The notes: generated from the letters alone by a model not told the origin. Positions 16,232 to 39,257 are shown, counted from the stretch's first letter. The stretch: 64,000 nt of DNA from a candidate division WOR-3 bacterium (GCA_013177935.1 JABLXZ010000004.1:340059-404058), one strand, 5' to 3'. Translations and numbers: made by a program.

Positions 16232-17518
16232 CTACGATAACCGGTCAAAATAGGCTGCCAGCCGCTTTGCCTGCAACCGCCGGTTGTAACGGTCAACCCC
16301 CATCACCCCTGATGAACTCCTCGCCTCTACGCTCCCATTTTCCTCCCTCGTTACTCCTCCCCTTTCCTTTATACCGGCACCCTTCACTCCTTCCCCGCCC
16401 TTGATGGAAGGAGACAAAGGGGAGGGTACTATCTCTCTGATTTCCCGCAGACACCTGACAAAACCCTGCCGGTCCTGACAGACCAGCCCCTGCCCCGTCG
16501 TTTTTACCATTTGCGCCGGCTCTGAATCTTCATCCGCCCAGACAACAATCGGCTTGTAACTGCCTAAATACTCGTACAGTTTCAATCCCACCGGTTGACC
16601 GGGCTTGCCCAGATACAAAAGCGCCTGCGCACCCTTCATCAGGCTTATCGCCCGCTGATGGGAGACAACACCTAAAAACTGGACCTGCGGACTGCTTTCA
16701 AACCGGTGCCTCACCTCTGCGGAAACTCCGCCCGCAATGTAGAGCCGGGCATCAGGCATCTCCCCCAAACCCTGCACAACTTCGCTCAATGTTTGTTCCT
16801 GATGCCACAGATTACCCGCATACAGGATGCTGAAACCATCAAGCGGTTCGGGCTCCACCTTAAAATCGTCCGGGTCAAACCCGTTTTCAAGAACCTCCAC
16901 CCTTTCCCCAACAAGACGGGCAGTTCCTTGATTGACCGCCAGTACCAGTTTTGCCTGATTTAATATCCGCTCTCGCAACCGCAAAAGCCTCCTCTTTTGA
17001 ACCTGGGGTGGCTCTTCAAACCCACCGGGCCAGGGGTCGCGGAAATCAGCCACAAAAGGCAGCCCGCTCCATCGGGAAAGTTTCTCACCTACTATCAACG
17101 CGGTCCAGGGTGGCGCCGATGCGAAAATCACCTGAGGCTTGAATTGGGCAATAACATTCTTACCCGTCCTGACCGCAAATGGCAACCAACCGACCTTGCT
17201 ATCCGGAAAGAAAAGACGACGGAAAACTAACTTAAAGAAGCCTGATTTGCCGGTTTTTTCTGAACCCCCCTTTATCTTTTTCACCCCAACCACTCTTAAC
17301 AACCGATTCGGGTCCAGACTTGCGGTGCGAAATACCTTCGCCTTACTTAAATCGGCAACAAGGTCCGGGTCGTAGGCATAATAGGCAACATCCTTCACCG
17401 TTAAAAGCAGAACCTCCCAGCCAAACTCGGGCAGAAACCTGGTAAGTTTTGTCACCCGCATCACACCGGAAAGCCCGAGCGGCGGTGTGTAGTAGGCGAC
17501 AAAAAGCACCCTTTTCAC
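16232..17518 (-). CDS. Glycosyltransferase family 4 with an unusual low-complexity C-terminal tail
   Basis: N-terminus MKRVLFVAYYTPPLGLSGVMRV and the EX7E-like region are GT4-like. GTG start overlaps the helicase stop (GTGA). The last ~60 aa (PSPLSPSIKGGEGVKGAGIKERGG...) are translated from the 39-bp repeat element. Confidence 0.65.
   Translation of the reverse strand: MKRVLFVAYYTPPLGLSGVMRVTKLTRFLPEFGWEVLLLTVKDVAYYAYDPDLVADLSKAKVFRTASLDPNRLLRVVGVKKIKGGSEKTGKSGFFKLVFRRLFFPDSKVGWLPFAVRTGKNVIAQFKPQVIFASAPPWTALIVGEKLSRWSGLPFVADFRDPWPGGFEEPPQVQKRRLLRLRERILNQAKLVLAVNQGTARLVGERVEVLENGFDPDDFKVEPEPLDGFSILYAGNLWHQEQTLSEVVQGLGEMPDARLYIAGGVSAEVRHRFESSPQVQFLGVVSHQRAISLMKGAQALLYLGKPGQPVGLKLYEYLGSYKPIVVWADEDSEPAQMVKTTGQGLVCQDRQGFVRCLREIREIVPSPLSPSIKGGEGVKGAGIKERGGVTREENGSVEARSSSGVMGVDRYNRRLQAKRLAAYFDRLS
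16391..16429. repeat. 39-bp dispersed element, copy 2 (TTCCCCGCCCTTGATGGAAGGAGACAAAGGGGAGGGTAC), inside the 3' end of the GT4 ORF
   Basis: Alignment with 13366-13404 shares TTCCCC.CCCTTGA.GG.AAGG...AAAGGGG.AGGGT. Confidence 0.55.
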
Positions 17519-19569
17519 CCGCGCTCTCCTGTTTCCCCGTTTTCCCCGGGCAGATGTTCGGTGATTTGTGCCTTCACAACCGCCGGCTCCATCCGCACCA
17601 GTTGAATTGAGTCGAGAAACTCATAAAGCCCGTCAATATCCAGGGTCAACAGGTGGTCTTCAATCTGCAAATCTGGTGGCAAATCCCGGAAAAAAGCACC
17701 CGAACCAAGGCTGTCCTCAAACTCCAGAAGGTGGTCCCGCACCACCCGTTTTACCGCATCCCGTCCCGGTAACGGAAATCGCCCCTCCTGCAACCTTGCC
17801 GCGGGCAGTACCATCACCTTACCCGCCATATCCACCGCCGCCACCCCTTCGGACTGCAACGCCAGAGTTAAAACCCCGCCATAGGTCGCACCGAGAAGAT
17901 GAACCAGATACGCTTGACCACCTTCAAAAAAATACGGGAACTCACCCGACTTCAACCCCGGAAAAATCCTTGACTTTAACACCTCTGCCATCCGGTAAAA
18001 GTACCCGCCGGTTCCGGTTCCTTCAAAAACCTTGGTACTGGGAGATACCGCGCCGTGTGGTCGGACAAAAATTTTCTTATCCTTTTCGCGCCGTTCCACA
18101 ACCTCCCAGGATTTGCCCCCAAGAACAAACCGCTCAAACACAAAGAACACCGAACCAACCTCCTGACCGCTGCTTACATCAACCACCTGATACTGACCAA
18201 AACTCTTCTCCTGAATGTTAGAGTGAACCTTTCCGGTCTCAACCCGGTGTTCTACTTTTGGAGTAAGAAAGTAAACTCCGTTGCCCTTTTCCTGCAAAAT
18301 CCCCTCCCGCACCAGATGGAAAAACACCTTTTCCACCACCGGGCTATTTCCCACCAGCGGTTGAAAAATCCGCCGCACCGCCTCTAACGTTGTGCCGATG
18401 CGCCGGCGCTGAAAACAGTAAGAAATAATCTGCTGGGGCAGAACCGAAAGACAGGGTGTGTACCTCTTATCAAAAAGTTTTCCCTCCCGGGCACAGTCGA
18501 TAAAGGTCTCAAACAAAAGCCGCTCCCAGGGGTCAAGATAAACCCCAATCATATACAGCCCGTTCCCGCGGCGGCGATTGCCCCGGCCGATACGCTGCAA
18601 AAGGGAAGAGACATTAAACGGTGGCCTAAACAGCACCACCGCATCAACATCACCGATGTCAATTCCTAACTCAAGGGTTGAAGTACAGCAGAGGATTCCG
18701 CTCCTTTCTCCGGTCATTCTTGCCTCAACCTCCTCCCGTACCTGCCGGTTCAAACTGGCATGATGGACCCATACCCGGCCGGAAAATGGCGGCAGGTCAA
18801 AAAGCTTCACCCCGCTTTCTGCGAGAGAGCGGGCGTTAAAAAACACCAGCGCCTTGTCACAACCCTGCTCCTGCAGCCGCCTGACAACCCGCCGGTACCA
18901 ATCCTTTTTCCCTGGCAGAAGTTCGGCGTTTATCTCACGGCGCTTTGCCACCTGCACCACCCCGGCACCAGAAAAGTACCGTTCACCCATCAACACATCG
19001 TCAACCGTTGCCGAAAGCGCATAGCCATTAAAATCGGGCTTAATCAACCGTAACCGTTCCAGCAGCACCCGTAACTGGTCACCCCGGGGCGTATTGTCAA
19101 GGAGGTGAATCTCGTCAACAATGACCGCGGTCAGGGTTTTAAAAATCCGTGGATGCCGGCACAAAAGCGAGTCAAACGACTCCGGCGTGGTTAAAAGCAT
19201 AAACGGCAGTCTGCGCTCATCAATCTGCGGGTGGTCACCGGTCTTGCGCTCCAGTTTCAGCCCGAGGTACTCCAGAGGCTCAAGTAGTCGGCGATAAAGG
19301 TCGTTGACCAGCGCCCTGGTCGGTGAAACATACAGAACCGCAAAACCCCTCTTTCCCATCCCGAGCAAACGCTCCACCACCGGTGCCACCACCGCTTCCG
19401 TTTTACCCGATGCCGCGGGCGAAATAACCACCAAATTTTCGCCCCGAAGGATGCGGGGAATCGCCTCAATCTGAACTTCGGTCAATCGGCCAAACCGGGC
19501 AAAAAATGCCGGATAGGTTCGGGGCAGTAGCGCCTTTACCGCCCGCTGCTCTTTTATTTCGTCCTGCAT
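17515..19569 (-). CDS. SF2 DExH-box helicase, Lhr-core-like
   Basis: Motif I ISPAASGKTEAVV, motif II VIVDEIHLL, motif VI QRIGRGNRRRG; 684 aa; no terminal Cys4 cluster (no obvious DUF1998). Confidence 0.7.
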   Translation of the reverse strand: MQDEIKEQRAVKALLPRTYPAFFARFGRLTEVQIEAIPRILRGENLVVISPAASGKTEAVVAPVVERLLGMGKRGFAVLYVSPTRALVNDLYRRLLEPLEYLGLKLERKTGDHPQIDERRLPFMLLTTPESFDSLLCRHPRIFKTLTAVIVDEIHLLDNTPRGDQLRVLLERLRLIKPDFNGYALSATVDDVLMGERYFSGAGVVQVAKRREINAELLPGKKDWYRRVVRRLQEQGCDKALVFFNARSLAESGVKLFDLPPFSGRVWVHHASLNRQVREEVEARMTGERSGILCCTSTLELGIDIGDVDAVVLFRPPFNVSSLLQRIGRGNRRRGNGLYMIGVYLDPWERLLFETFIDCAREGKLFDKRYTPCLSVLPQQIISYCFQRRRIGTTLEAVRRIFQPLVGNSPVVEKVFFHLVREGILQEKGNGVYFLTPKVEHRVETGKVHSNIQEKSFGQYQVVDVSSGQEVGSVFFVFERFVLGGKSWEVVERREKDKKIFVRPHGAVSPSTKVFEGTGTGGYFYRMAEVLKSRIFPGLKSGEFPYFFEGGQAYLVHLLGATYGGVLTLALQSEGVAAVDMAGKVMVLPAARLQEGRFPLPGRDAVKRVVRDHLLEFEDSLGSGAFFRDLPPDLQIEDHLLTLDIDGLYEFLDSIQLVRMEPAVVKAQITEHLPGENGETGERG

Positions 19570-19604
19570 TAATGGTCTTTGCCTGACCGCTGCCGGTCCA
19601 TCTC

Positions 19605-20942
19605 CTAAGCGACCAGTTGCGGCAGAACACCCTGTTTCCGGAGCCGGGCGATGTCCAGCGCCTCAACACAGAATTTGATAAACGCCCGCACCCCGGTGCT
19701 GCTCTGCCGGGCAGCGCTGGCTAAAAGCTGTTTCTGCTCTTCAATCGGCAGTTTGAACCCGGGATAGGCACGCTCGTAAATCCGCACCATCGTGGCGAAC
19801 GCATCTGCCAGCGCCTGGTCTTCAAGCGGTGTCAGGGCAATCCGATGCCGCACCGCATTGGCAAGCCGGATATAGCCATACTCGCCCGGGGTTGGTGTCG
19901 TGGCAAAAATGACGAGAAGTGCCGGGTCCCGATATATGTAGGGCACGGGCCGTACCTGATTGTGAATCAGCCGTTCATTGACCATCTTCAACTCCGGGTC
20001 GTTCTGGGCGCAGCGCACAAGACCGTCCATAAAGTTGACACTCTTGGTCAGATAGACCACATCCCAGAGCCGGGTCACGGTCTCCGCCTCATCAATCAAC
20101 AAAACCAGCCCCTTGAGTCCCAACTCCCGGGCGATACAGGAAATCCCGGTGATGATGTTACAGTAAAAGTCCGCTGCGGTAGAAAAGTCGTAAAGCGCCG
20201 GAATCCCCTGCGCACCCCGCACCCGTGAAGCGGTTGGCATCTCTACCGCATACTCCTTGGTACTCTCACCTTCAATCCACTGCCAGAAAACCTCATTCTC
20301 CGGTGAACCGGTATCAAGCCTTCGCAGTTTGTTCAGCACCGGCCCAAAGAAAATGTGGTCGCTGAAATTCAACTGTGTTGCCGCCCGCAACAAATCCCGA
20401 TACCCGTGCTCCATCCCATCCCTGATATAACGGAGGTTGCGCACCAGTTCCCGGTAAACCCGCTTGGGTCGGTGCGGCGAAACCTCCACCGGGTCAAACT
20501 GGACAAAACTCGCCGCCATCCCTTCCTGCAATGCCCGATGTAAACAGTACTCAAGAAGATGGGTCTTGCCCGTACCGTACTCACCCTCCACCATATAAAC
20601 ATCTCCCCGATTACGGGCAAGGTTCTTGAGCGCATCCTCCAGCGTTTTAACCTCCCGTTCCCGGCCAAAGGTAAAGGTCTCAACATCCTGATGCGGCACA
20701 ATACCCAGGCGGAAAGCCTCAATCATCCGACAGGCGCTCACCCGGTCAATTGCTGCAACACTTGCGGTTGCCGACTCTAGTAAATCGCCGTCAAATTCAA
20801 ACAGAAACCGCACCCGATTGCGCGGCAACCACAACCGCAAACCGGTCTGAAACCGCACCAGCAACTCCGTTCCCTGCCACCGGCTGTCAACAACCTCGCC
20901 TTCCCCGAAGACCGGATGCGACACCAGGTTAGAACTCTTCAC
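19605..20942 (-). CDS. P-loop NTPase (paralog B) with N-terminal Tudor-like HPvFGeGeV domain; possibly BrxD/DUF2791-like
   Basis: Walker A GEYGTGKTHLL (aa ~121), Walker B LVLLIDEAE (aa ~280); N-terminus VSHPVFGEGEVVDSRWQGTELLVRFQTG resembles the UvrD/PcrA C-terminal Tudor-like motif; 14-nt overlap with the upstream paralog. Confidence 0.5.
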   Translation of the reverse strand: MKSSNLVSHPVFGEGEVVDSRWQGTELLVRFQTGLRLWLPRNRVRFLFEFDGDLLESATASVAAIDRVSACRMIEAFRLGIVPHQDVETFTFGREREVKTLEDALKNLARNRGDVYMVEGEYGTGKTHLLEYCLHRALQEGMAASFVQFDPVEVSPHRPKRVYRELVRNLRYIRDGMEHGYRDLLRAATQLNFSDHIFFGPVLNKLRRLDTGSPENEVFWQWIEGESTKEYAVEMPTASRVRGAQGIPALYDFSTAADFYCNIITGISCIARELGLKGLVLLIDEAETVTRLWDVVYLTKSVNFMDGLVRCAQNDPELKMVNERLIHNQVRPVPYIYRDPALLVIFATTPTPGEYGYIRLANAVRHRIALTPLEDQALADAFATMVRIYERAYPGFKLPIEEQKQLLASAARQSSTGVRAFIKFCVEALDIARLRKQGVLPQLVA

Positions 20943-22194
20943 GCTCCACCTTCTCCTGCTCGCTCCGCTCCAGGCGCTGGGTTGTCACCCGCAAAAGTTT
21001 CTCCGCATCCCGCTCGGTCAACACCAACCCCGGATTGGCGCGCACCTGATGCAAAAACTCCACCGCCGCAACAACAAACAACCGCCGGTAACTAACATCA
21101 AGCACAAACCCCCTGACCGCAGTCTCAGCAAGCAGTTTCAAACTCCGCTCCACACCGCTGACCTTTGCCCCGTAAGCGGTCTCAAAAAGGTCAACGAGCC
21201 GCCTGCCCAGTTCCTCCAGAAACGACACCGGCTCAATACCCAACTCCTCTAAGTTAATCCGCACCCCGACCGGATTTGCCTCAGAAAACCCGCTGCGCAA
21301 CCGCTGCTTCAGCGCCTCGTAAACCGGTCCCGAACCCTCCAAAAGCAGATTCTCATCCGGCACCGCATAGAAAAACATCGCTCCGGGCAAACGCGAGTTA
21401 CCGCACTCATCAACCAACTGCCGCAGATTGTCCAGCGCCCGGCGTCGGTCCCTTGACGAAGAGATTGACATCCCCCGCTCCGCCTCATCAAACAGCAAAA
21501 CCACGCCCCGAAACCCAATCGTATGCACCCACTGAATCAAGGAGCGCAGCATCCGGAATGCGGTTGACTTGTCAATCCGCTCGGAAATCTTAAACCGCGC
21601 CCGTGCCTCGCGGGAAATCTCCTCACCCTTAAGCCACTGCACCGCTTCGGTGAACCCGTCAATATCTTCGGCTAACAGGGCGCTGAACGCACCCTTCACC
21701 CCGTTAAAGAAACTGGTTGAGTCCGGCACCGGTAACTGCAACAGATACTCCTGCAACCGCTCTGGCTTGTCCTCCTTACTGCGCCAGGTTGCTGCCCAGT
21801 GCCGAATCACCGCATCAATCCCCTTGTCGGTCAGCGTTGCCAAGCGGCTTGTCTCCTGCGGTGCGGTCAGATTGAGCGCCACCATCTTGTAAACCAGTTC
21901 CAGTTTATCAAACGGACATTCAATCGGCGACAAACTCACATACGCCACACAGTAATTGTGCTTAAACGCCCGGTTGCGCACCGCATAAAGAAAGTGCGTC
22001 TTGCCCCCGCCGTAATTCCCGGTAACCAGTTTAAAACTGGACAGATTGTACTTCAAAATCCCGTTCAGATACTCATCCTCCACCACCTGCAACAGCCGGT
22101 CCAGCCCGACCGTAAACGCCTCAATCCCGAACTCGGGTGGTGTGCCGGTTGAGCCTAATTTATTGATAATTGCCCTTGCCAGTTCTCTATCCAT
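20929..22194 (-). CDS. P-loop NTPase (paralog A); possibly BrxD/DUF2791-like
   Basis: Walker A GNYGGGKTHFLY (aa ~60), Walker B VVLLFDEAE (aa ~232); collinear similarity to 19605..20942 (..A.R.I..LGS.G.P....E.FT.G..). Confidence 0.5.
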   Translation of the reverse strand: MDRELARAIINKLGSTGTPPEFGIEAFTVGLDRLLQVVEDEYLNGILKYNLSSFKLVTGNYGGGKTHFLYAVRNRAFKHNYCVAYVSLSPIECPFDKLELVYKMVALNLTAPQETSRLATLTDKGIDAVIRHWAATWRSKEDKPERLQEYLLQLPVPDSTSFFNGVKGAFSALLAEDIDGFTEAVQWLKGEEISREARARFKISERIDKSTAFRMLRSLIQWVHTIGFRGVVLLFDEAERGMSISSSRDRRRALDNLRQLVDECGNSRLPGAMFFYAVPDENLLLEGSGPVYEALKQRLRSGFSEANPVGVRINLEELGIEPVSFLEELGRRLVDLFETAYGAKVSGVERSLKLLAETAVRGFVLDVSYRRLFVVAAVEFLHQVRANPGLVLTERDAEKLLRVTTQRLERSEQEKVEREEF

Positions 22195-22215
22195 TGCCCG
22201 CTCCTCGCTTAAAAA

Positions 22216-23064
22216 CTACCCGTTGACAAAAGAAATATACGAATAAAAGGTGCCCTCGCCCTCCTCATTATCCGGCACCCACAGCGCCTTTGCCTTCTCC
22301 GCGGTGGCGTCAAAATTTGCCACCGACAGCCGCAACCCCTTGCCGCCAACGGTACGGACACCGGAACGCTTCAAAAGGTACAGGTCGTAACTGAACCGGA
22401 TGCGCGGGTACTCAACAAACCGCTCCCGCACCGGATTCACCCGAAACCCATCCGACTGCATCAAAAACACCATCTCGCCCAGCAAATCCACCAAAAAAAC
22501 CCGCTCCCCTTCCGCCACATTCCGCGCCACACAGACCCGGCGATAGGCGGTAAAAAGCCGCTCCCCAAACTCCGCCGGCTCCTTAATCGCCCGCTTCTTC
22601 AAACTCTCATCATAACTCCGCAACAGTTTTGCCAGCCCCAGCGGCTCCAGTTTCACCCCACCTTTTAGCAACTCAATCTCCGGACCCCAGAAAACGGTTG
22701 CTTTACCTGTGGCAAAGTCTACCCGCACCGAAAACAACCCGCACCGCAAAAACGGCAACTGCCCCTTAACATTCAAACCGCTCCCTTCCAGACCAGCAAG
22801 CAACTGCCTGCCAAACTCAAACTTAAACTCCTCCTTTGCCGCCTCAATCTGCCTCTTCTCCTCATCCAGCCACTGCCGCACCTTATCCCTTACCTCGCCC
22901 GGTGCAAGACCATCAAGTACCTTCTCCACCTCAACCACCAGCCGCTCCCTTTCATACGCATTCCGAACCGGCTCGGCAATCAGCCGGCTATAACCGGCAA
23001 GCAGTTTTGCCACCTTCTGGGACCGCAAAGCGGTATCCTTCAAAACACCAATCAGCCCTTCCAT
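22216..23064 (-). CDS. hypothetical protein (282 aa), first gene of the ATPase/helicase operon
   Basis: No recognisable motif; ATG sits 8 nt downstream of a consensus -10 hexamer. Confidence 0.5.
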   Translation of the reverse strand: MEGLIGVLKDTALRSQKVAKLLAGYSRLIAEPVRNAYERERLVVEVEKVLDGLAPGEVRDKVRQWLDEEKRQIEAAKEEFKFEFGRQLLAGLEGSGLNVKGQLPFLRCGLFSVRVDFATGKATVFWGPEIELLKGGVKLEPLGLAKLLRSYDESLKKRAIKEPAEFGERLFTAYRRVCVARNVAEGERVFLVDLLGEMVFLMQSDGFRVNPVRERFVEYPRIRFSYDLYLLKRSGVRTVGGKGLRLSVANFDATAEKAKALWVPDNEEGEGTFYSYISFVNG

Positions 23065-23072
23065 AATTTATC

Positions 23073-23101
23073 AGTATATTATCCCGACTTTATAATGTCA
23101 A
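23073..23101 (-). promoter_or_regulatory. Consensus sigma70 promoter TTGACA-17-TATACT reading into 23064 (leaderless or near-leaderless mRNA)
   Basis: rc of 23062-23104 = ctgTTGACAttataaagtcgggataaTATACTgataaattATG. Confidence 0.45.
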
Positions 23102-25877: not shown

Positions 25878-25964
25878 GGAGGGCTAGCCTAACTGGTAAG
25901 GCAGCAGACTTGAAATCTGCCGACCCTTCAACGGGTCTTGCGGGTTCGAATCCTGCGCCCTCCG
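25878..25964 (+). tRNA. tRNA-Ser (anticodon TGA), type II with long variable arm; no encoded CCA
   Basis: Acceptor GGAGGGC/GCCCTCC+G; anticodon stem GCAGA/TCTGC with loop CTTGAAA; T-loop TTCGAAT. Confidence 0.85.
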
Positions 25965-25980
25965 TAGTAAGGATAGAGCA

Positions 25981-26018
25981 GAAGCGCAGTAGCGGGATAG
26001 AGCAGAAGGCCAGAAGTA
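25981..26018. repeat. Two 24-nt-spaced direct repeats GGATAGAGCAGAAG between the tRNA-Ser genes (same family as the 46790-46948 array, opposite orientation)
   Basis: GGATAGAGCAGAAGCGCAGTAGCG / GGATAGAGCAGAAGGCCAGAAGTA, compared with rc of the array unit GAGAGAGCAGAAGAGCAGAAGCCG. Confidence 0.5.
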
Positions 26019-26065
26019 ATGTCCGACCGGAACGCTTTTCTGCTACTGACTTTTACGCAAATCTG

Positions 26066-26153
26066 GAGAGGTGGCCGAGCGGCTGAAGGCAACCGCTTGC
26101 TAAGCGGTTATACGGCTAACCCCGTATCAAGGGTTCGAATCCCTTCCTCTCCG
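26066..26153 (+). tRNA. tRNA-Ser (anticodon GCT), type II
   Basis: GGAGAGGTGGCCGAGCGGCTGAAGGCA D-arm typical of tRNA-Ser; anticodon loop TTGCTAA; T-loop TTCGAAT; acceptor CCTCTCC+G. Confidence 0.85.
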
Positions 26154-26239
26154 TTTAACAACGCTCCCTTTTGCCCGCTTGTGCTAAAAACAGATGGGCA
26201 GGGGAAAATAATTTGACGATAACTCAATAACATTTAACT

Positions 26240-27817
26240 ATGAATAACGAGCCGGTGCGCGTCCGTATTGCCCCTTCACCAACCGGTGCGATGCACCTTG
26301 GTCTTGCCCGCACCGCCCTTTACAACTATCTGTTTGCCCGTCAGCACCAGGGTGTGTTCATCCTGCGGATTGACGACACCGACCAGGTGCGCAATCAGGC
26401 GGAGATGCTTGAGCCCATCCTTGATGGCTTGCGCTGGCTCGGGCTGGAATGGGACGAAGGTCCAGAAAAGGGCGGACCTTACGAACCCTACTACCAGTCG
26501 CAACGGAGCGCAATCTATCAGGCGGCGGTGGAAAAACTGCTTGCCTGTGGTGCCGCCTATCTTGACTACGCCACGCCAGAAGAGATCGCTGCGGAACGGG
26601 AGCAGGCGCGGCAACGGGGCGAGACCTTTCGCTATAGCCGGCGCTGGATGGCAGAAACCGCAGAACAAAAGGCAAGTTTTGAAGCCCAGGGTAGAAAGCC
26701 GGTAGTCCGTTTGAAGATGCCCCAATCGGGCACAATGGTGATTGAAGACCTGATTCGCGGCCGGGTGGAGTTTGACCTTGCCCTGGAACAGGACCACATC
26801 ATCCAGCGTCAGGACGGCACATTCCTTTACCATCTGACCAGCGCAGTTGACGACGGCGAGATGAAAATCAGCCACATCATCCGCGCCGAAGAGCACCTTT
26901 CCAACACCCCGCGCCAGGTTTTTATCCTTCAGGCGCTCGGCTATCCTTTGCCCCGCTTTGCCCATCTGCCGTTTGTTGCGGAACCGGGCAGTAAGAACAA
27001 GTTGAGCAAGCGCCGGCTCAAGGAGTACCTGAAGCGTGCCGAGTTCAAGGAGTTGATGACCAAAGGCGAACTGATTGCCCGGCGTTTGAACCTGAGCACC
27101 AGCCCGGATTTGTTAAATCCGGTGGTGATTGACTTCTACGAAAAGATTGGATTTCTACCCGAAGCGCTTCTTAACTACCTTGCCCTTTTAGGCTGGGCAC
27201 TGGACGACCGCACCGAATACTTCACTAAAGAGGAACTCATCCGCTCCTTTTCCCTTGACCGGGTCAATCGGGCGCCGGCAAGTTTTGACCCGCAAAAACT
27301 GCTCGCATTCCAGGTCCATTATATGATGCAACTGCCTGTGGCAAAAAGGGTGGAACTGGTCCTGCCCTATCTGATAAAAGCCGGACTAATAAAGGAGCCG
27401 GTTGCACCGGAAATTCAGGAGATGGTTGGTGCAATCGTCCAGGCTGCGGGTGACCGCATCAAGGTTGCGGGCGACATCCTTGAATACGACTACTTCTTCC
27501 TGCCCGATGAGCAACTAACTCTTGACCCGAAGGCAGTAAAGCGCTGGGTCGCACCCGAAGGACAAAAGGCGCTGCTTGCCGAGTTTGAAGCCGCGCTGAC
27601 CGAAATCCTCAACTTCACCAAGCCGGTAATTGAGTCGCTTGTTGCCCAGCTTGCCGCGGCAACAAACACCAAGCCGATGGCGGTCAGTCAGGCGCTACGG
27701 GCCGCTTTGACCGGAAAGGATTACGGATTTGCAATTGCCGACTGTGTGATGATTCTTGGCAGAGACCGGGTCCGTAACCGAATTCGCCGGGCACTAACCG
27801 TGGCGCAACAAACTTAA
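26240..27817 (+). CDS. gltX: Glutamate--tRNA ligase
   Basis: RIAPSPTGAMHLG (HIGH-class motif) and KLSKR; 525 aa. Confidence 0.9.
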   Translation: MNNEPVRVRIAPSPTGAMHLGLARTALYNYLFARQHQGVFILRIDDTDQVRNQAEMLEPILDGLRWLGLEWDEGPEKGGPYEPYYQSQRSAIYQAAVEKLLACGAAYLDYATPEEIAAEREQARQRGETFRYSRRWMAETAEQKASFEAQGRKPVVRLKMPQSGTMVIEDLIRGRVEFDLALEQDHIIQRQDGTFLYHLTSAVDDGEMKISHIIRAEEHLSNTPRQVFILQALGYPLPRFAHLPFVAEPGSKNKLSKRRLKEYLKRAEFKELMTKGELIARRLNLSTSPDLLNPVVIDFYEKIGFLPEALLNYLALLGWALDDRTEYFTKEELIRSFSLDRVNRAPASFDPQKLLAFQVHYMMQLPVAKRVELVLPYLIKAGLIKEPVAPEIQEMVGAIVQAAGDRIKVAGDILEYDYFFLPDEQLTLDPKAVKRWVAPEGQKALLAEFEAALTEILNFTKPVIESLVAQLAAATNTKPMAVSQALRAALTGKDYGFAIADCVMILGRDRVRNRIRRALTVAQQT

Positions 27818-27832
27818 CATTCAGGAGTTGCT

Positions 27833-29554
27833 ATGGCAGAGAAAGACCGAATCGCCGAAGAAAAATCTGGACCGGACTTTATCCGGCGCATCATCAACGA
27901 AGACTTAAAGAGTGGCAGGTTTTCGCCGCCAATTGTCACCCGCTTTCCGCCCGAGCCTAACGGCTATCTCCACATTGGCCATGCCAAGTCAATCTGCCTG
28001 AACTTCGGCATCGCCCGCGAGTACGGCGGCAGGTGCCATCTGCGCTTTGACGACACCAACCCGGAAAAGGAAGAAGAGGAGTTTGTCCGTTCCATTATGG
28101 AAGATGTCCGCTGGCTGGGGTTTGACTGGGGTGAACACCTGTACTACGCTTCCGACTACTTTGAGCAGTTGTACCAGTGGGCAATTGAGTTAATCAAAAA
28201 GGGCAAGGCGTATGTGTGCGACCTTTCCCCCGAACAGGTCCGGGAGTACCGGGGCACTTTAACCGAACCGGGCAAGGAGAGCCCGTATCGCAACCGTTCA
28301 GTTGAAGAGAACCTTGACCTGTTTGAGCGGATGCGCCGGGGCGAATTTCCAGACGGCTCCAAAACCCTGCGGGCAAAGATTGATATGGCTTCGCCCAACC
28401 TCAATCTGCGCGACCCGGTGATGTACCGGATTATGAAGGTGCCGCACCATCGCACCGGTGACAAGTGGTGCATCTATCCAACCTACGACTGGGCACATGG
28501 CCAGTCCGACTCAATTGAAGGTATCACCCACTCCATCTGCACTTTGGAGTTTGAAGACCACAGGCCCCTTTACGACTGGTTTCTTGACCAGTTAGGTGTC
28601 CATCACCCCCGTCAGGTTGAGTTTGCCCGGCTCAACCTCACCTATACGGTGATGAGCAAGCGCCGGCTCTTAGAACTGGTGGAAAAGGGTTATGTTTCGG
28701 GCTGGGACGACCCGCGCCTTCCTACCATCGCGGGTTTGCGGCGTCGGGGCTACACACCGGAGTCAATCCGCAACTTCTGCGACCGGGTTGGTGTGGGCAA
28801 GGCGGACACCGTGGTGGCGATTGAACTGCTTGAAGACTGCATCCGGGAAGATTTGAACAGGCGTGCCCCGCGCGTGATGGCGGTTCTGAAACCGCTCAAG
28901 GTGGTGATTGAAAACTTTCCCGAAGGCAAGGTTGAAGAGGTTGAGGCGCTCAACAACCCGGAAGACCCAGCAGCGGGCACCAGGCTCGTGCCCTTCTCCC
29001 GGGAAATCTACATTGAAGAAGACGACTTCCGGGAAGAGCCGCCCCCAAAGTACTACCGGCTTGCGCCCGGTCGCGAAGTCCGGCTCCGCTACGCCTACAT
29101 CATCAAATGTGTCGGCGTGGTCAAGGACGCTTCGGGTCAGATTCGGGAGTTGCGCTGTGTTTACGACCCCTTAACCCGCAGCGGTACTGAAACCCGCAAG
29201 GTCAAGGCGACCCTGCACTGGGTGTCTGCCGCTCACGCCCTGAACGCCGAAGTCCGGCTCTATGACCGGCTCTTCTTAAAACCGGACCCGGACGATGTGC
29301 CCGAAGGCCTGGACTGGAAGGCAAACCTCAACCCCAACTCACTTGTCGTGCTTAACAACTGCAAGGTGGAGCCGTCCTTGAAAAATGTCCAGCCCGGTGA
29401 CCGGTTCCAGTTTGAGCGGTTGGGCTACTTCTGTGCCGACCTCAAAGATTGTAAACCGGAACACCTGGTGTTCAACCGCACCGTCACTTTGCGGGACACC
29501 TGGGCAAAAATCGAACAGAAACTGAAACAAAGCCAACCAGGAGAGAAGAAATGA
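27833..29554 (+). CDS. glnS: Glutamine--tRNA ligase
   Basis: [23 protein letters not shown] and VMSKR; the anticodon-binding beta-barrel region is present. Confidence 0.9.
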
Positions 29555-30172: not shown

Positions 30173-33100
30173 TTACCCCTGTTGCCGCTTGCGTCGTTCC
30201 GAGCGGGTCTCAAATATCGTATAAAGAACCGGAATGAACACGAGCGGTAAAAAGGTGGAGACAATCATACCACCAACAATCGCTCTGCCCAGGGGTGACC
30301 ACAACTCTGAACCCTCGCCAATCTGAAACGCTAAGGGCAGCATCCCGAAAATCGTGGTCAAAGATGTCATCAAGATGGGCCGGAGCCGAATCCGTCCCGC
30401 CTCTTTGACCGCATCAATCAAACCCATTCCCCGCTCCCGGCGCAATCGGTTGGTATAGTCAATGTACACAATCCCGTTGTTCACCACCACACCCACGAGA
30501 ATCAGAAGCCCTAAAAGCGAAATCACCGAAAGGGTTGTCCGGGTCAAAAACAGAATCCAGAGCACCCCAATCAGGGCAAAGGGCATCGTGAACATAATGA
30601 TGAACGGGTCGCGCAGCGACTCAAACTGAGACGCCATTACGACAAACACCAGAACGAGCGCAATCAAAATTACTAAGGCGAAGTCCCGGAAGGTTCGGGT
30701 CATCTCTTCGTAAGAGCCGGAAAGTTTCAATGTGAAGCCGGTAGGTATCGGAATGTCCTTGATTGCCCGGGCGATTTTCTGTGCCGCCTGACCCGCAGAG
30801 ATGCCCACATTACGGGCGGTAATCTTGACAATCCGCTCGTTGTTCTTCCGCTCAATCTCCAGTGGACCGGTGCTGGTGCGCACCGTGACCAGATTGCCCA
30901 GCGGCACCGGACCAGTGGGGCTGGGTACAAATGTGCCTAAAATCTCCACCAGTTCATCGCGCTGCTCTTCGGGCAGGCGAATCAAAATGTCGTACTCCTT
31001 ACCGCCCAATCGGTAAACGGTTGGTGCATTACCCTCCACCTCGGTGCGCAGTGCCGCACCAATCTGATAAGGGGTCAAGCCGTAGAGCGCCGCCTTCTGC
31101 CGGTCCACCACCAGTTGCAGTTCGGGCTTGCCAGGCTGACGGCTGGATTTGATGTCCACCAGTCCGGGTATCGTCTCAATTGCGGCGATAACCTTACGGG
31201 TCAAACTGTCCGCAGTAGCGAGGTCGTAGCCGGTTATGTCAAGTTCCACCCCGGAACTGGTTCCTGCCATACTGGTGAAACTGAACTCCTGGACATAAAC
31301 CTTTAACCCCGGAATTGTTGCGGCAAAGCGCCGGATATCCTGGTCAATCTCTTCAACCGAATGCTTACGCAGGCGTTTTGGCTTCAAAACGATGTTCAGA
31401 AGTCCGGAATGGCTGCCCGAAGAGCCGCCCATAATCGCCACAAACCCGGTGCCGGTGCCCAGTTGCACCGCCACACCCTCAATCTCATCCTGCCACCGTT
31501 CCTGGACATAGTTCTCCAGTTTCCGTACCGCACTGTCGGTAACTGCAAGGTTGGTTCCCACTGGCATCTCCACCTGTAATCGGTGAAACTGGCTCTCCTG
31601 GACCGGGAAAAACTCGGTCCCGATAAAACGCACCAGCCCAAGACTGACGCCCAGAATCACCACCGCACCAAAAACCACCAGCCGCTTATGCCCCAATGCC
31701 CAGCCAATCAAACGGGCATAGCCATCTTCAATCCGCTGGTAAAACCGCTCGCTCCACTTTCGGATGCCGCTAATTGCCGGCTTCGGGTCGGGCAGATACC
31801 GGCTAGTTAAGGTCGGAATCAAAGTCAAAGCGATAACGAGCGAAGCGACCAGCGCGCCGACAACCGCCCAAACTAACTGGGGAAATATCACCTGGAGAAA
31901 ACCGCGCACCAGAAGCAAAGGCAGAAACACGACAATCGTGGTCAGAGTGGAAGCGGTAATCGCCATCGCCACCTCATCGGCACCAACACTTGCCGCCCGA
32001 AACCGCTCGGTACCGCGCTCCCGATGCCGGAAAATCGCCTCAAAAACCACAATACCATTATCCACCACCATCCCGACCGCAATCGCCAGACCCGCCATTG
32101 ACAGGATGTTGACCGAATAACCCAAAAGGAACATAAAGAACAGGGCAAAGAAAACCGAAAGCGGAATCGCAAACGCAACAAACAGCGTTGCCCGGAACCG
32201 GCGTAGAAACAGAAACAGAATAAACACCGCGAGGATGCCACCGAGCAGGATGTTGTAAACCACATTGGAAATTGAGCGGGTAATCTCCTTGGACGAGTCA
32301 AAGATAACCTCGTGCTCAACCCCGGCTGGTAAAATTGAACTCAACTCCTTCAGTTCTGCCCGTGCTGCCCGGGCAACCTGCACCGGATTGGCATCAGGCC
32401 GGCGCTGGACAACCACAAAAATCGCACTACCCTGATTGTACCGTGCCACGGTCAAAACCTCTTCTGGTCCCCAGTCAACATCGGCGATGTCCTTCAAAAG
32501 AATCGGACTCTGACCTTTCATCCCGACCACGGTGTTGCGCACCTGGTCCAAATCGGTGTACTCGCCCAAAAGCCGGATGAGAAACTCCTTGCCCTGACTC
32601 GTAACCCTTCCCACCGGGTAGTTAAGGTTCTGCGCCTGCAGGGTCAGATTGAGCGCATCAATCGTAATGCCCGCAGCGAGCAGTTTCTCCTCTTTAACCT
32701 TCACCTGTAACTGGCGCTTGGTCCCGCCTGCAACCATCGCGGTCGCCACACCCGGCACCCTTTGCAACCCATCTGCCAGGTCCTCTGCCACATCGCGCAT
32801 AAGCAACTGGTCAACATCGCCGTAAAGGGCAATCTGTAAAACCGGCATCATTGACGCATCCAGTTTGAAAACCGCGGGCCGGGAAGCGGCATCGGGCAAC
32901 ATCGCCACCGCCATATCCAGCCGGTCGCGCACATCCGCTGCCGCCGCATCTAAGTTTGTGCCCCAGGCAAACTGCAACTGCACAATTGAGATGTTTTCCA
33001 GCGACCGGGAGGAAATCTCCTTTAAGTTGGAGATTGTACCCACCCGCTCCTCAATCACTTTGGTAACCTCAGCCTCAACCTCCTGCGGTCCCGCACCAGG

Positions 33101-33253
33101 ATAAGATGTAACGACAATCATCATCGGCAGGGTAACCGGTGGCAGGATATCAACCGGCATCCGGGAAACGCCCACCACCCCGAACAGCACCAGAACCAGG
33201 GAGACCAGAATTGTCGTTACCGGTCGCTTAATTGATGTATCGGTCAGTTTCAT
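30173..33253 (-). CDS. RND efflux transporter permease (HAE1/AcrB family)
   Basis: 1026 aa; 12-TM architecture; N-terminus MKLTDTSIKRPVTTILVSLVLVLFG... Confidence 0.9.
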   Translation of the reverse strand: MKLTDTSIKRPVTTILVSLVLVLFGVVGVSRMPVDILPPVTLPMMIVVTSYPGAGPQEVEAEVTKVIEERVGTISNLKEISSRSLENISIVQLQFAWGTNLDAAAADVRDRLDMAVAMLPDAASRPAVFKLDASMMPVLQIALYGDVDQLLMRDVAEDLADGLQRVPGVATAMVAGGTKRQLQVKVKEEKLLAAGITIDALNLTLQAQNLNYPVGRVTSQGKEFLIRLLGEYTDLDQVRNTVVGMKGQSPILLKDIADVDWGPEEVLTVARYNQGSAIFVVVQRRPDANPVQVARAARAELKELSSILPAGVEHEVIFDSSKEITRSISNVVYNILLGGILAVFILFLFLRRFRATLFVAFAIPLSVFFALFFMFLLGYSVNILSMAGLAIAVGMVVDNGIVVFEAIFRHRERGTERFRAASVGADEVAMAITASTLTTIVVFLPLLLVRGFLQVIFPQLVWAVVGALVASLVIALTLIPTLTSRYLPDPKPAISGIRKWSERFYQRIEDGYARLIGWALGHKRLVVFGAVVILGVSLGLVRFIGTEFFPVQESQFHRLQVEMPVGTNLAVTDSAVRKLENYVQERWQDEIEGVAVQLGTGTGFVAIMGGSSGSHSGLLNIVLKPKRLRKHSVEEIDQDIRRFAATIPGLKVYVQEFSFTSMAGTSSGVELDITGYDLATADSLTRKVIAAIETIPGLVDIKSSRQPGKPELQLVVDRQKAALYGLTPYQIGAALRTEVEGNAPTVYRLGGKEYDILIRLPEEQRDELVEILGTFVPSPTGPVPLGNLVTVRTSTGPLEIERKNNERIVKITARNVGISAGQAAQKIARAIKDIPIPTGFTLKLSGSYEEMTRTFRDFALVILIALVLVFVVMASQFESLRDPFIIMFTMPFALIGVLWILFLTRTTLSVISLLGLLILVGVVVNNGIVYIDYTNRLRRERGMGLIDAVKEAGRIRLRPILMTSLTTIFGMLPLAFQIGEGSELWSPLGRAIVGGMIVSTFLPLVFIPVLYTIFETRSERRKRQQG

Positions 33254-34209
33254 TGTCCACCCGCCTCCACCGGATTCACCTTCTGCCCTTCCTTGACACC
33301 TTCCTTACCGGTCGTCGCCACCTTCTCACCCGGTTCCAGCCCTTCAATCACCTCAACCCACTCATCACCCCGCAAACCAAACCTTACCGGCTGGAGATGG
33401 GCGATGCCATCTCTTACCACCACCACCCGTTCCTCACCGGTGGCAAACAGCGCGGCGAGCGGCACCATCACCACATCCTTCTTCTCCTCAACCACCAGCC
33501 GTGCCATTCCTGCCATTCCCGGCACCAGACTACGCCGGTAATTGGGAATAGAGATTTCCACTGTTGCCGAACGGGACATCGGGTCAAGCATCGGTGCCAC
33601 CCTCGTAACCACTCCACTAAACGCACTTTCGCCTGCCGCTGAGAAAAAGACCCGCGCCTTGAGTCCGGGTTTAACAAAAGGCAAATCCGTCTCACTCACC
33701 AGCGCCTTCATCTTAATCCGGTCCGAAAACCGCGCCACCGCGGCAAAAGGCATCGTCGGTGCCACGGTCTGGCCCACCTCAACATAAACCTTGCCCACCA
33801 CACCGGCAATCGGCGAGCGCACCGGTCCGGGCTTGTAGTCCATACCGGGAATGTCGTTCACCACATAACCAATCGGCTCATCCGGACCAACCACCGAACC
33901 CTCCGGTTTGGTAATTTCGGTCACCCTGCCGGTGATTTTGGAATAGACCAGAACCTGCTCCTCACCCTGCAACACCCCGAGCAGTTGAATCGAACGGCTC
34001 ACCGTGCCCCGTGGTACTGTGACCACCGTGACCGCCGGTACTATCGCCTCTTTTTCCTTTTTACCGGAGCGGGACTGGCAACCCGGCGCCGCCACAATTG
34101 TCAGAACCATCGTCGCCGCCACCACACAACTTAACACCCGCCGCAAAATCGGGTCCGTACCGTCAATTACCGCTTTCCCCTTCACTAACTTCTTAAAAAT
34201 GTTTCTCAT
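33250..34209 (-). CDS. RND efflux periplasmic adaptor (membrane fusion protein, HlyD/AcrA family)
   Basis: Lipoprotein-like N-terminus, coiled-coil/lipoyl-like pattern; overlaps the RND gene by 4 nt. Confidence 0.8.
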   Translation of the reverse strand: MRNIFKKLVKGKAVIDGTDPILRRVLSCVVAATMVLTIVAAPGCQSRSGKKEKEAIVPAVTVVTVPRGTVSRSIQLLGVLQGEEQVLVYSKITGRVTEITKPEGSVVGPDEPIGYVVNDIPGMDYKPGPVRSPIAGVVGKVYVEVGQTVAPTMPFAAVARFSDRIKMKALVSETDLPFVKPGLKARVFFSAAGESAFSGVVTRVAPMLDPMSRSATVEISIPNYRRSLVPGMAGMARLVVEEKKDVVMVPLAALFATGEERVVVVRDGIAHLQPVRFGLRGDEWVEVIEGLEPGEKVATTGKEGVKEGQKVNPVEAGGQ

Positions 34210-34222
34210 AATTCACTCCTCC

Positions 34223-37819: not shown

Positions 37820-37822
37820 AAA

Positions 37823-39202: not shown

Positions 39203-39210
39203 TGGGCTTC

Positions 39211-39239: not shown

Positions 39240-39257
39240 TAACTGAAAATGACCGAT

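What the first reader, a model, noticed from the sequence alone, without database searches (positions are those of the whole stretch)
17515..23101. Leaderless operon with an unknown 282-aa protein, two paralogous P-loop ATPases and an Lhr-like helicase: candidate uncharacterised defence or DNA-processing module
The minus-strand genes are 22216..23064 (no recognisable domain), 20929..22194 and 19605..20942 (paralogs), and 17515..19569 (SF2 DExH helicase with motif I SPAASGKTEA, II VIVDEIH and VI QRIGRGNRR; Lhr-core-like). The two paralogs have Walker A GNYGGGKTH / GEYGTGKTH and Walker B VLLFDEAE / VLLIDEAE, separated by an unusually long ~160-170 aa insert. The genes overlap or abut: a 14-nt overlap between the ATPases, and a GTGA start/stop overlap into the downstream GT4 gene. 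They are preceded by a consensus TTGACA-17-TATACT promoter only 8 nt from the first ATG. An ATPase with an Lhr-like helicase recalls BrxD (DUF2791) / BrxHI of type-2 BREX. But no PglX methyltransferase, PglZ, BrxC or kinase is present, the ATPase is duplicated, and an unknown protein leads the operon. The locus lies in an accessory-looking stretch: glycan genes, T9SS cargo, a homopolymer-interrupted gene, and a tRNA-Ser pair 2.7 kb away.
Basis: partly seen in the sequence, partly recalled or inferred. Interest (0 to 1): 0.8.

Follow-up and report, generated by a model that had tools for sequence, protein, structure and literature searches.

The report
Conserved BrxD-BrxHI-type ATPase-helicase operon
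This is a real four-gene operon (one unknown protein, two BrxD-like ATPases, one Lhr-like helicase) from an unnamed gene module that sits in defence islands in scattered bacteria and archaea, but in the WOR-3 phylum it is inherited with the chromosome among housekeeping genes.

Summary
In detail: all ORFs, motifs, overlaps and the promoter are as described.

**What it is**
- The two ATPases belong to Pfam BrxC_BrxD. The helicase matches PADLOC BrxHI and SngC models and is nearest to Lhr among solved structures.
- The 282-aa protein matches no family library. Its confident model shows a helical bundle, a beta sheet and a C-terminal winged helix.
- The second ATPase starts with a probable UvrD/PcrA-type Tudor domain.

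**Distribution**
- The same four genes, in the same order, occur in all 140 or so related loci where the contig allows.
- Outside WOR-3 the hosts include Aciduliprofundum, Brocadia, ANME-1, Poribacteria and Atribacterota. Flanks there vary and often hold BREX, restriction-modification, SIR2 or pAgo genes.
- In WOR-3 the cassette is monophyletic and under strong purifying selection (dN/dS 0.04-0.19). It lies in three clade-specific housekeeping contexts, and the leaderless promoter is conserved in 26 of 38 loci.

**Reading**
- The "accessory stretch" reading fails for WOR-3.
- Most likely this is a defence-derived helicase-loading and surveillance complex that has become fixed in WOR-3.
- Its biological target is unknown, and universality within WOR-3 was not testable.
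- It is a new variant of a known kind.

The parts
23073..23101 (-). Sigma-70-type promoter. The -35 TTGACA is at 23101..23096, followed by a 17-nt spacer and the -10 TATACT at 23078..23073. Eight nt (GATAAATT) then lead to the ATG at 23064, which implies a leaderless or 1-2-nt-leader mRNA.
   Evidence: The arrangement TTGACN-N16-18-TANANT-N5-10-start is present in 26 of 38 distinct WOR-3 orthologous loci, with variable spacer sequence. The transcription start site itself is inferred, not measured.
22216..23064 (-). Gene A, 282 aa, with no known family. Residues 1-92 form an N-terminal three-helix bundle and residues 99-138 a five-stranded beta sheet. A helical region and a C-terminal winged-helix-like module follow (about aa 189-282, nt 22219..22500). 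No conserved catalytic residue set is present. It is proposed as an adaptor, DNA-binding or specificity subunit.
20929..22194 (-). Gene B1, 421 aa, a BrxD-family (ORC/Cdc6-type AAA+) ATPase. Walker A is at nt 21994..22020 and Walker B at 21478..21501.
   Evidence: PF10923 8.6e-48 over the full length. PADLOC BrxD 2.2e-39 and SngB 3.1e-20. NCBIfam BREX_BrxD scores 132.9 bits against a cut-off of 350. Walker motifs are invariant in 52 orthologs. dN/dS is 0.04-0.05 against close relatives.
19605..20942 (-). Gene B2, 445 aa, an N-terminal Tudor-like domain (aa 4-50, nt 20793..20933) fused to a BrxD-family ATPase. Walker A is at nt 20559..20585 and Walker B at 20082..20105.
   Evidence: PF10923 3.6e-27 and PADLOC BrxD 4.8e-28. 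The N-terminal H-x3-G-x-G...F...W signature is invariant in 25 orthologs from WOR-3 and elsewhere. The top four PDB hits of the domain profile are all UvrD C-terminal Tudor domains: E 0.011-0.095 without any canonical Tudor in the profile, and 4e-5 with one. PF21196 is recorded on the L059 ortholog.
17515..19569 (-). Gene H, 684 aa, a BrxHI/Lhr-like SF2 helicase. Motif I is at nt 19393..19422, motif II at 19105..19125 and motif VI at 18571..18597. A C-terminal extension of about 160 aa (aa 526-684, nt 17518..17994) is found in WOR-3 and two sister lineages but not in the short form (525-540 aa) seen elsewhere.
   Evidence: DEAD 1.4e-30 and Helicase_C 1.3e-16. PADLOC BrxHI 5.8e-72 and SngC 3.1e-62. 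Nearest PDB entries are M. smegmatis Lhr 5v9x and 7lhl at 2e-25. It is 44% identical over aa 5-525 to the 527-aa Aciduliprofundum helicase. Motifs are invariant in 44 orthologs.
16232..17518 (-). GT4 glycosyltransferase gene, a conserved downstream neighbour whose GTGA start overlaps the helicase stop. It is probably co-transcribed but is not part of the module.
   Evidence: Pfam Glyco_transf_4. It follows the helicase in 34 WOR-3 loci but is absent from the deep WOR-3 clade and from all loci outside WOR-3. Its dN/dS is higher, 0.21-0.31.

Best explanation
The four genes form one leaderless operon. It encodes a stand-alone ATPase-helicase machine of the BrxD-BrxHI kind, the same building blocks as the accessory dyad of type-2 BREX and as SngB/SngC of Shango.

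Shown:
- The unit is a fixed quartet: protein A, ATPase B1, Tudor-ATPase B2 and an Lhr-like helicase.
- The quartet recurs unchanged in many bacteria and archaea.
- Both ATPases and the helicase keep intact catalytic motifs.
- None of the four carries a recognisable nuclease or other effector domain.

Inferred mechanism:
- B1 and B2 form a hetero-oligomeric ORC/Cdc6-type ATPase.
- Together with the winged-helix protein A, they recognise a nucleic-acid or protein cue. They then load or license the Lhr-like 3'-5' helicase, which is the motor and probably the effector.
- The UvrD/PcrA-type Tudor domain on B2 tethers the complex to RNA polymerase (or to a UvrB-like partner). Surveillance is thereby aimed at transcribed DNA, R-loops or stalled transcription complexes.

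Biological role:
- In most lineages the module behaves as a horizontally moving defence-island element.
- In WOR-3 a long-helicase version entered the ancestor once. It has since been kept in the chromosome as a constitutive surveillance system derived from immunity.
For: - **Family assignments:**
- **Quartet conserved in order and strand:** 53 WOR-3 loci, 80 metagenome loci, and named genomes Aciduliprofundum sp. MAR08-339 and Ca. Brocadia pituitae.
- **Catalytic motifs:** invariant.
- **Ancient paralogy:** B1 and B2 are separate, ancient paralog families found everywhere the cassette is.
- **Tudor domain:**
- **Winged helix in A:**
- **Published reading of the homologs:** BrxD is an ORC/Cdc6 AAA+ ATPase tightly paired with BrxHI and proposed as its loader (PMC12839542).
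- **Tudor function elsewhere:** the PcrA/UvrD Tudor domain binds RNA polymerase (PMC8318588 and PMC5397179, listed).
- **Defence context outside WOR-3:**
  - nested in a BREX locus (L058);
  - next to an N6_N4 methyltransferase plus ResIII/SNF2 helicase (L059 and L142);
  - type IIG RM plus a DrmD-like helicase, PDC-S68, and a mad8-like protein;
  - SIR2 plus a toxin-antitoxin pair (L143);
  - pAgo, Cas1, BrxL and PglX among the neighbours.
- **Phyletic spread:** patchy across domains of life. The Lhr-like helicase of Aciduliprofundum has been published as a horizontal acquisition (PMC8301817).
- **Fixation in WOR-3:**
  - monophyly in the B1 tree;
  - identities of all four genes fall in parallel across loci;
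  - three clade-specific syntenic housekeeping contexts;
  - dN/dS 0.04-0.19;
  - conserved promoter.
Against: - There is no experiment on any member of this quartet.
- No effector domain was found, so how it would stop a phage is unknown.
- The Tudor assignment rests on borderline E-values once canonical sequences are removed: 0.011-0.095, and 0.065 with WOR-3 sequences alone.
- Physical association of the four proteins was not modelled.
- Long-term syntenic retention and slow evolution are atypical for immune genes. They fit a housekeeping role equally well or better.
- Enrichment of defence genes among the neighbours outside WOR-3 was seen in examples and family counts. It was not tested against a background rate.
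Confidence: 0.5

Rival explanations
1. In WOR-3 the module is domesticated housekeeping machinery. It would be an RNA-polymerase-coupled helicase system for R-loop removal, transcription-coupled repair or transcription-replication conflicts, with no immune role in this phylum. Alternatively, genome maintenance is the family's primary role everywhere.
For: - Single origin and vertical descent in WOR-3.
- Clade-specific conserved contexts made of core genes: recF-dciA-gyrB, pyrG-lptCAB, and GluRS/GlnRS.
- dN/dS of 0.04-0.08 for the enzymes, lower than the adjacent GT4 gene.
- A conserved constitutive-looking consensus promoter.
- No mobile or defence gene next to the cassette in any of the 53 WOR-3 loci.
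- Lhr helicases act in DNA repair. The best NCBIfam hit is the ligase-associated DNA-damage-response helicase, although below its cut-off.
- A UvrD-type Tudor domain.
Against: - The same quartet elsewhere is patchy, crosses domains of life and sits among BREX, restriction-modification, SIR2 and pAgo genes.
- B1 is also 55-70% identical among the mobile copies, so slow evolution is a family trait rather than proof of a core role.
- Presence in all WOR-3 genomes was not shown. The genome scan found 48 species representatives, while a recent study counted 181 MAGs in the phylum.
- The scan patterns miss divergent members.
Confidence: 0.3
2. It is a degenerate or split type-2 BREX (Pgl) system, or a Shango system proper, whose other parts lie elsewhere or were lost.
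For: PADLOC and Pfam place the ATPases nearest BrxD, then SngB, and the helicase nearest BrxHI, then SngC. One relative lies inside a BREX locus (L058).
Against: - No PglZ, PglX, BrxC/PglY or PglW was found among all window ORFs of 500 aa or more, nor within 10 kb in the WOR-3 loci inspected.
- The ATPases score far below the NCBIfam BrxD equivalog cut-off (133 and 95 bits against 350).
- There is no TerB/SngA-like protein. Protein A has no PADLOC or Pfam hit.
- Four genes with two ATPase paralogs is the invariant architecture in about 140 loci. Type-2 BREX and Shango have one ATPase each.
- The BREX in L058 is of the BrxL type, and the cassette is nested inside it as a guest.
Confidence: 0.05
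3. The cassette works with the translationally coupled GT4 glycosyltransferase and the adjacent sugar genes, for example in DNA glycosylation or envelope glycan control.
For: The helicase stop and GT4 start overlap as GTGA. The GT4 gene directly follows the helicase in 34 WOR-3 loci, with GT2 and epimerase genes beyond it.
Against: - GT4 is absent after the helicase in the deep WOR-3 clade (L036-L050) and in every locus outside WOR-3.
- In clade II an unrelated gene is often inserted between the helicase and GT4.
- GT4 evolves three to five times faster in dN/dS.
- GT2 and the epimerases are on the opposite strand, as in an ordinary glycan cluster.
Confidence: 0.05

Closest known systems
BrxD-BrxHI dyad of type-2 BREX (Pgl)
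   Same: The same two protein families: a PF10923 / PADLOC BrxD ATPase and a PADLOC BrxHI Lhr-like helicase, encoded side by side. Both lack extra effector domains. Published analysis treats BrxD as an ORC/Cdc6-type AAA+ ATPase that may load BrxHI.
   Different: - It stands alone, with no PglZ, PglX, PglY or PglW.
- The ATPase is duplicated into two ancient paralogs.
- One paralog carries an N-terminal Tudor-like domain, whereas BrxD is described as a standalone ATPase without extra domains.
- A fourth, unknown protein always leads the operon.
- Both ATPases score below the NCBIfam BrxD equivalog cut-off.
Shango (SngA TerB protein, SngB ATPase, SngC helicase)
   Same: A small stand-alone operon of an accessory protein, a DUF2791-type ATPase and a DEAD/DEAH helicase with no obvious effector. 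B1 and B2 hit SngB (3e-20 and 3e-10) and H hits SngC (3e-62). Shango is an experimentally shown anti-phage system.
   Different: - Protein A is not a TerB protein and has no SngA hit.
- There are two ATPases instead of one.
- A Tudor domain is present.
- Matches to the BrxD and BrxHI models are stronger than to the Sng models.
Lhr / 'Lhr-like' SF2 helicases (M. smegmatis Lhr; Lhr-like group of Hajj et al. 2021)
   Same: The nearest solved structures are Lhr 5v9x and 7lhl. The helicase has no Pfam Domain 4 hit, as defined for the 'Lhr-like' group. That group includes the Aciduliprofundum sp. MAR08-339 protein, which belongs to this very cassette.
   Different: It is not a lone repair helicase: it is always encoded after A, B1 and B2. 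It scores far below the NCBIfam ligase-associated helicase cut-off (191 against 850). The WOR-3 form has an extra C-terminal region of about 160 aa.
ORC/Cdc6-Cdt1 loading of the MCM helicase (analogy only)
   Same: ORC/Cdc6-class AAA+ ATPases (the literature assignment for BrxD) act with a separate winged-helix protein and a helicase. The best structural matches to A's C-terminal domain are the ORC1, Cdc6 and Cdt1 winged helices.
PcrA/UvrD C-terminal Tudor domain (RNA polymerase and UvrB interaction module)
   Same: The H-x-x-F-G-x-G-x-V ... V-x-F motif and its length. The top profile hits are UvrD C-terminal domains 7egs, 6yi2, 7egt and 4c2t.
   Different: The domain sits at the N-terminus of an AAA+ ATPase rather than the C-terminus of an SF1 helicase. 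Its binding partner is untested, and significance is borderline without a canonical sequence in the profile.

Membership tests
Type-2 BREX (Pgl) | PglZ phosphatase, PglX methyltransferase and the BrxC/PglY ATPase core in the locus | tested here: not met
   Pfam scans of all window ORFs of 500 aa or more, plus the flanking genes, found none. None appears within 10 kb in the WOR-3 loci with precomputed Pfam or among the recurrent neighbour families.
Type-2 BREX (Pgl) | PglW kinase-nuclease | tested here: not met
   No protein kinase or NERD hit among the window ORFs scanned.
Type-2 BREX (Pgl) | BrxD ATPase at equivalog level | tested here: not met
   NCBIfam NF033438 scores 132.9 bits (B1) and 94.5 bits (B2) against a cut-off of 350. 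Family-level membership in Pfam PF10923 is met (163.7 and 95.8 bits against 22.2).
Type-2 BREX (Pgl) | BrxHI Lhr-like helicase adjacent to BrxD | tested here: met
   PADLOC BrxHI model PDLC02503 at 5.8e-72 covers aa 25-506. The gene lies directly downstream of the ATPases.
Shango | SngA with a TerB domain | tested here: not met
   The 282-aa protein has no PADLOC hit at E <= 0.01 and no Pfam hit at E <= 10. Its modelled fold is a helical bundle, a beta sheet and a winged helix.
Shango | Three-gene architecture with one SngB ATPase and one SngC helicase | tested here: not met
   Four genes with two distinct ATPase paralogs in about 140 loci. SngB and SngC models are hit, but more weakly than BrxD and BrxHI.
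Lhr-core helicases | RecA1-RecA2-WH-Domain 4 (Pfam DEAD_assoc), or equivalog-level match to the ligase-associated helicase or Lhr | tested here: not met
   Only DEAD and Helicase_C are found. The C-terminal 339 aa has no Pfam hit at E <= 10. TIGR04121 scores 191 against 850, and PRK09751 scores 81 against 1496. It fits the published 'Lhr-like' group, which lacks a detectable Domain 4.
PcrA/UvrD Tudor domain (PF21196) | Sequence match to the Tudor profile or to solved UvrD/PcrA C-terminal domains | tested here: inconclusive
   - The window protein alone has no Pfam hit.
- The ortholog profile's top four PDB hits are all UvrD C-terminal domains, at E 0.011-0.095.
- E is 4e-5 when one canonical tandem copy is included, and 0.065 with WOR-3 sequences only.
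- PF21196 is recorded on the L059 ortholog.
ORC/Cdc6-type AAA+ ATPases | Clade-specific inserts and an arginine finger | not tested
   Taken from the literature for BrxD. Here there are only weak Pfam hits to ORC-CDC6-like (E 0.13), TIGR02928 orc1/cdc6 (E 0.005) and the DnaA/Hda families.
Defence-island (accessory) gene behaviour | Patchy distribution, variable flanks and neighbouring defence or mobile genes | tested here: not met
   - For the WOR-3 branch the feature is not met. The branch is monophyletic and its flanks are syntenic housekeeping genes.
- For the short-form branch outside WOR-3 the feature is met.
- No copies were found on plasmids or viral contigs.

The most novel reading that the evidence does not exclude
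A defence-island module has been domesticated by a whole bacterial phylum into a core genome-maintenance machine coupled to RNA polymerase. Two ORC/Cdc6-like ATPases and a Cdt1-like winged-helix subunit would load an Lhr-type helicase at transcription complexes. That would be a bacterial counterpart of ORC-Cdc6-Cdt1 helicase loading, used for surveillance rather than replication.
Probability: 0.2. Interest if true: 0.8.

Novelty: new variant of a known kind. Interest (0 to 1): 0.6.

Why it matters
BrxD and BrxHI are the least understood parts of type-2 BREX, and Shango has no known mechanism. This quartet is a minimal, self-contained version of the same chemistry, and it offers three handles the known systems lack:
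- an obligate second ATPase paralog;
- a probable RNA-polymerase-binding Tudor domain;
- a dedicated winged-helix partner protein.

It occurs in a cultured archaeon with a complete genome (Aciduliprofundum sp. MAR08-339), so it can be tested.

The WOR-3 branch is a rare case of an immune-type module kept in place across a large part of a phylum. That makes it a natural case for asking how defence genes become core genes. The first protein also defines a family of at least 810 clusters (50% identity) with no match in the Pfam, NCBIfam or PADLOC copies searched here.

Tried and rejected
- **TerB/SngA identity for protein A:** rejected. No PADLOC or Pfam hit.
- **Nuclease motif in A:** the D252...E256-K257 stretch looked like a PD-(D/E)xK remnant. 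It is replaced by R/T in the short-form family, and family-wide invariant residues are mostly G, P and aromatics. Rejected.
- **Whole-protein fold search for A:**
  - Foldseek against PDB gave nothing significant.
  - The afdb50 library was unavailable.
  - Only the truncated C-terminal model gave an interpretable winged-helix match.
- **Pfam on single fragments:** the B2 N-terminus and the helicase C-terminus gave no hits.
- **Carriage on mobile elements:** tblastn of two family members against PLSDB plasmids and two IMG/VR scans found nothing.
- **Locus scans with alignment A2:** Solved with the narrower alignment A6.
- **Universality in WOR-3:**
  - Its peptide patterns match 117 of 117 close WOR-3 proteins but only 4 of 148 divergent representatives. 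The 48 species found are therefore a lower bound.
  - The cultured WOR-3 strain sy37 (AP038914) could not be queried.
- **Literature:** searches for a named system with this architecture found none in the held library.
- **Rfam:** only the two tRNA-Ser genes appear in 15-27 kb.
- **Terminators:** intrinsic-terminator-like sites are not above the shuffled expectation.

Full report
**1. Observation**

The 14-nt ATPase overlap, the GTGA helicase/GT4 overlap and every quoted motif translate as stated.

The site TTGACA-17-TATACT, 8 nt before the ATG, is the best sigma-70-like match in the region, with 11 of 12 positions.

The source organism is a candidate division WOR-3 bacterium. The 282-aa protein is 100% identical to NCBI HPY86_08295.

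**2. The four proteins**

B1 (421 aa) matches Pfam BrxC_BrxD end to end (8.6e-48). It also matches PADLOC BrxD (2e-39) and, more weakly, SngB (3e-20).

B2 (445 aa) matches the same families (3.6e-27, 5e-28, 3e-10). Both ATPases fall far below the NCBIfam BrxD equivalog cut-off. B1 and B2 are 28% identical paralogs.

The long spacing between Walker A and Walker B is a property of the BrxD family, not an oddity of this locus.

The helicase matches PADLOC BrxHI (6e-72) and SngC (3e-62). Its nearest solved relatives are mycobacterial Lhr. It has no detectable Domain 4, which places it in the published 'Lhr-like' group.

B2 begins with a 45-residue domain whose H-x3-G-x-G...F...W signature is invariant in 25 orthologs. 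Three lines bear on its identity as a Tudor domain:
- A profile of this domain has UvrD C-terminal Tudor domains as its top four PDB hits. E is 0.011-0.095 without any canonical Tudor in the profile and 4e-5 with one. WOR-3 sequences alone give 0.065.
- One ortholog carries a second, canonical PF21196 copy in tandem.
- I treat the Tudor assignment as probable, not proven.

Protein A has no match in Pfam, NCBIfam, PADLOC or PDB sequences. Its AlphaFold model is confident (pLDDT 92.8) and shows:
- a three-helix bundle;
- a five-stranded sheet;

The whole fold has no PDB neighbour. Family-wide invariant residues are mostly glycines, prolines and aromatics. A is therefore more likely an adaptor or DNA-binding subunit than an enzyme.

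**3. The quartet is a unit, and it is widespread**

A profile of A finds 810 clusters at 50% identity, 565 of them at E <= 1e-10.

In 53 WOR-3 loci the order A-B1-B2-H on one strand holds wherever the contig reaches. The same holds in 80 metagenome loci found with a non-WOR-3 alignment and in several loci looked up individually.

Walker and helicase motifs are invariant across orthologs.

Named carriers outside WOR-3 are:
- Aciduliprofundum sp. MAR08-339, a cultured archaeon with a complete genome;
- Ca. Brocadia pituitae;
- two ANME-1 archaea;
- Poribacteria;
- Ca. Caldatribacterium;
- Cloacimonadota;
- a Syntrophaceae MAG;
- a Thermoplasmata MAG.

Outside WOR-3 the helicase is a short form of about 525-540 aa. 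WOR-3 and two sister lineages carry about 160 extra C-terminal residues.

**4. Context outside WOR-3**

Flanks are not conserved and repeatedly contain defence genes:
- The cassette is nested between the BrxC/PglX side and PglZ-BrxL of a BREX locus (L058).
- It is followed by a 1000-aa N6_N4 methyltransferase and a ResIII/SNF2 helicase in both L059 and Aciduliprofundum. In Aciduliprofundum a UvrD/PD-(D/E)xK protein is also present.
- It is preceded by a type IIG RM enzyme and a DrmD-like helicase in L117. It is followed by PDC-S68 in L092 and preceded by a mad8-like giant protein in L134.
- It is flanked by a toxin-antitoxin pair and a SIR2 gene in Brocadia.
- pAgo, Cas1, BrxL, PglX and TnpB also appear among 117 neighbours.

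No copies were found on plasmids or viral contigs.

This is defence-island behaviour, although I did not measure it against a background rate.

**5. Context inside WOR-3**

The picture is the opposite.

An NJ tree of B1 puts all WOR-3 copies in one clade, and its inner structure mirrors three synteny groups. Identities of A, B1, B2 and H fall together from locus to locus. B1 tracks the neighbouring epimerase closely.

Each group has its own conserved, housekeeping surroundings:

| Group | Upstream | Downstream |
|---|---|---|
| I | TetR/RND efflux or GluRS-GlnRS | GT4-GT2-epimerases |
| II | recF-dciA-gyrB-M42 peptidase-pilus ATPase | - |
| III | pyrG-acyltransferase-lptC-lptA-lptB-C25 peptidase | MgtE |

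No defence or mobile gene adjoins the cassette in any of these loci.

dN/dS against close relatives is as follows:

| Gene | dN/dS |
|---|---|
| B1 | 0.04-0.05 |
| B2 | 0.05-0.07 |
| H | 0.08 |
| A | 0.10-0.19 |
| GT4 (neighbour) | 0.21-0.25 |

The -35 and -10 hexamers, and their 8-nt distance to the start codon, are kept in 26 of 38 distinct loci while the spacer sequence varies. That is a phylogenetic footprint for a leaderless transcript. The internal genes keep GAGGAG-type ribosome-binding sites.

It is therefore largely met for WOR-3.

What I could not show is presence in every WOR-3 genome:
- Its patterns miss divergent members.
- The phylum holds on the order of 180 dereplicated MAGs.

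**6. Mechanism**

Shown:
- a fixed quartet;
- two catalytically intact ATPase paralogs;
- an intact SF2 helicase;
- no effector domain.

Inferred:
- B1 and B2 act as a hetero-oligomeric ORC/Cdc6-type ATPase. BrxD has been read this way, as a possible loader of BrxHI.
- A supplies a winged-helix surface.
- The Tudor domain docks the assembly on RNA polymerase or UvrB, as it does for PcrA/UvrD (papers listed).
- The Lhr-like helicase is delivered to transcribed DNA or R-loops.

I commit to this as the most likely working model. I take the role to be immune-type surveillance that has become fixed in WOR-3 (confidence 0.5).

The main rival is full domestication to genome maintenance in WOR-3 (0.3). 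A remnant of BREX or Shango (0.05) and a functional link to the GT4 gene (0.05) are unlikely, for the reasons given under the rival explanations.

**7. Comparison and novelty**

The module works like the BrxD-BrxHI dyad and like Shango, but it fails membership tests for both:
- It has no PglZ, PglX, PglY or PglW.
- It has no TerB protein.
- It has two ATPases rather than one.
- Its scores are below the equivalog cut-off.

I found no paper describing this quartet, the Tudor-BrxD fusion or protein A. PADLOC-DB 2.0 has no model for A.

I rate it a new variant of a known kind, with interest 0.6. The family is a good candidate for a new named system. The retention across WOR-3 is the surprising part, but nothing has been tested experimentally.

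Noticed in passing
window 39758-46705 (minus strand): A 1289-aa protein combines an nSTAND_NTPase5 domain with about 24 TPR repeats. A 733-aa TPR protein and a GT2 gene follow. They lie in the lowest-GC part of the window (46-49% against 53-58%). This may be a STAND/Avs-like conflict gene or an island.
   Followed up: no
L059:9981-15147, L142:14724-21230, L117:2048-9366: A methyltransferase of about 1000 aa (N6_N4 or type IIG) paired with a ResIII/SNF2 helicase of about 1050 aa lies right next to the short-form cassette in three unrelated loci. One of them is Aciduliprofundum sp. MAR08-339. This may be a recurrent partner module.
   Followed up: partly
L058:1-20822: A short-form cassette, fragmented by frameshifts in a long-read assembly, is nested inside a BrxL-type BREX locus between the BrxC side and PglZ. 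A DDE transposase lies nearby.
   Followed up: partly
L004:15635-16075 and the same position in L017, L023, L025, L026, L052: In one WOR-3 clade a 23S_rRNA_IVP (four-helix-bundle) gene is inserted between the helicase and the GT4 gene.
   Followed up: no
L059:6381-7883; L117 (965-aa ORF after B1): One B2 ortholog carries two tandem Tudor domains. Another locus has an apparent B2-helicase fusion, or a lost stop codon.
   Followed up: no
window 25878-29554: Two tRNA-Ser genes (anticodons TGA and GCT) are followed by tandem class-I synthetase paralogs, one GluRS-like and one GlnRS-like.
   Followed up: no
window 1-24000 and 32000-40000: GC skew on the plus strand is strongly and persistently negative (-0.2 to -0.28), and the cumulative skew falls almost monotonically across the window.
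   Followed up: no
window 22195-22215 and 23065-23072: The first gene of the operon has no ribosome-binding site and abuts its promoter. The internal gene B1 is preceded by GAGGAG. Leaderless and Shine-Dalgarno-led initiation therefore coexist in one operon.
   Followed up: partly
L054 (GCA_038872195.1 contig JAVZGJ010000061.1): A complete cassette lies on a 9-kb contig binned as a Thermoplasmata archaeon. Together with Aciduliprofundum and ANME-1 carriers, this points to transfer between bacteria and archaea. B1 is 55-70% identical across domains of life.
   Followed up: partly
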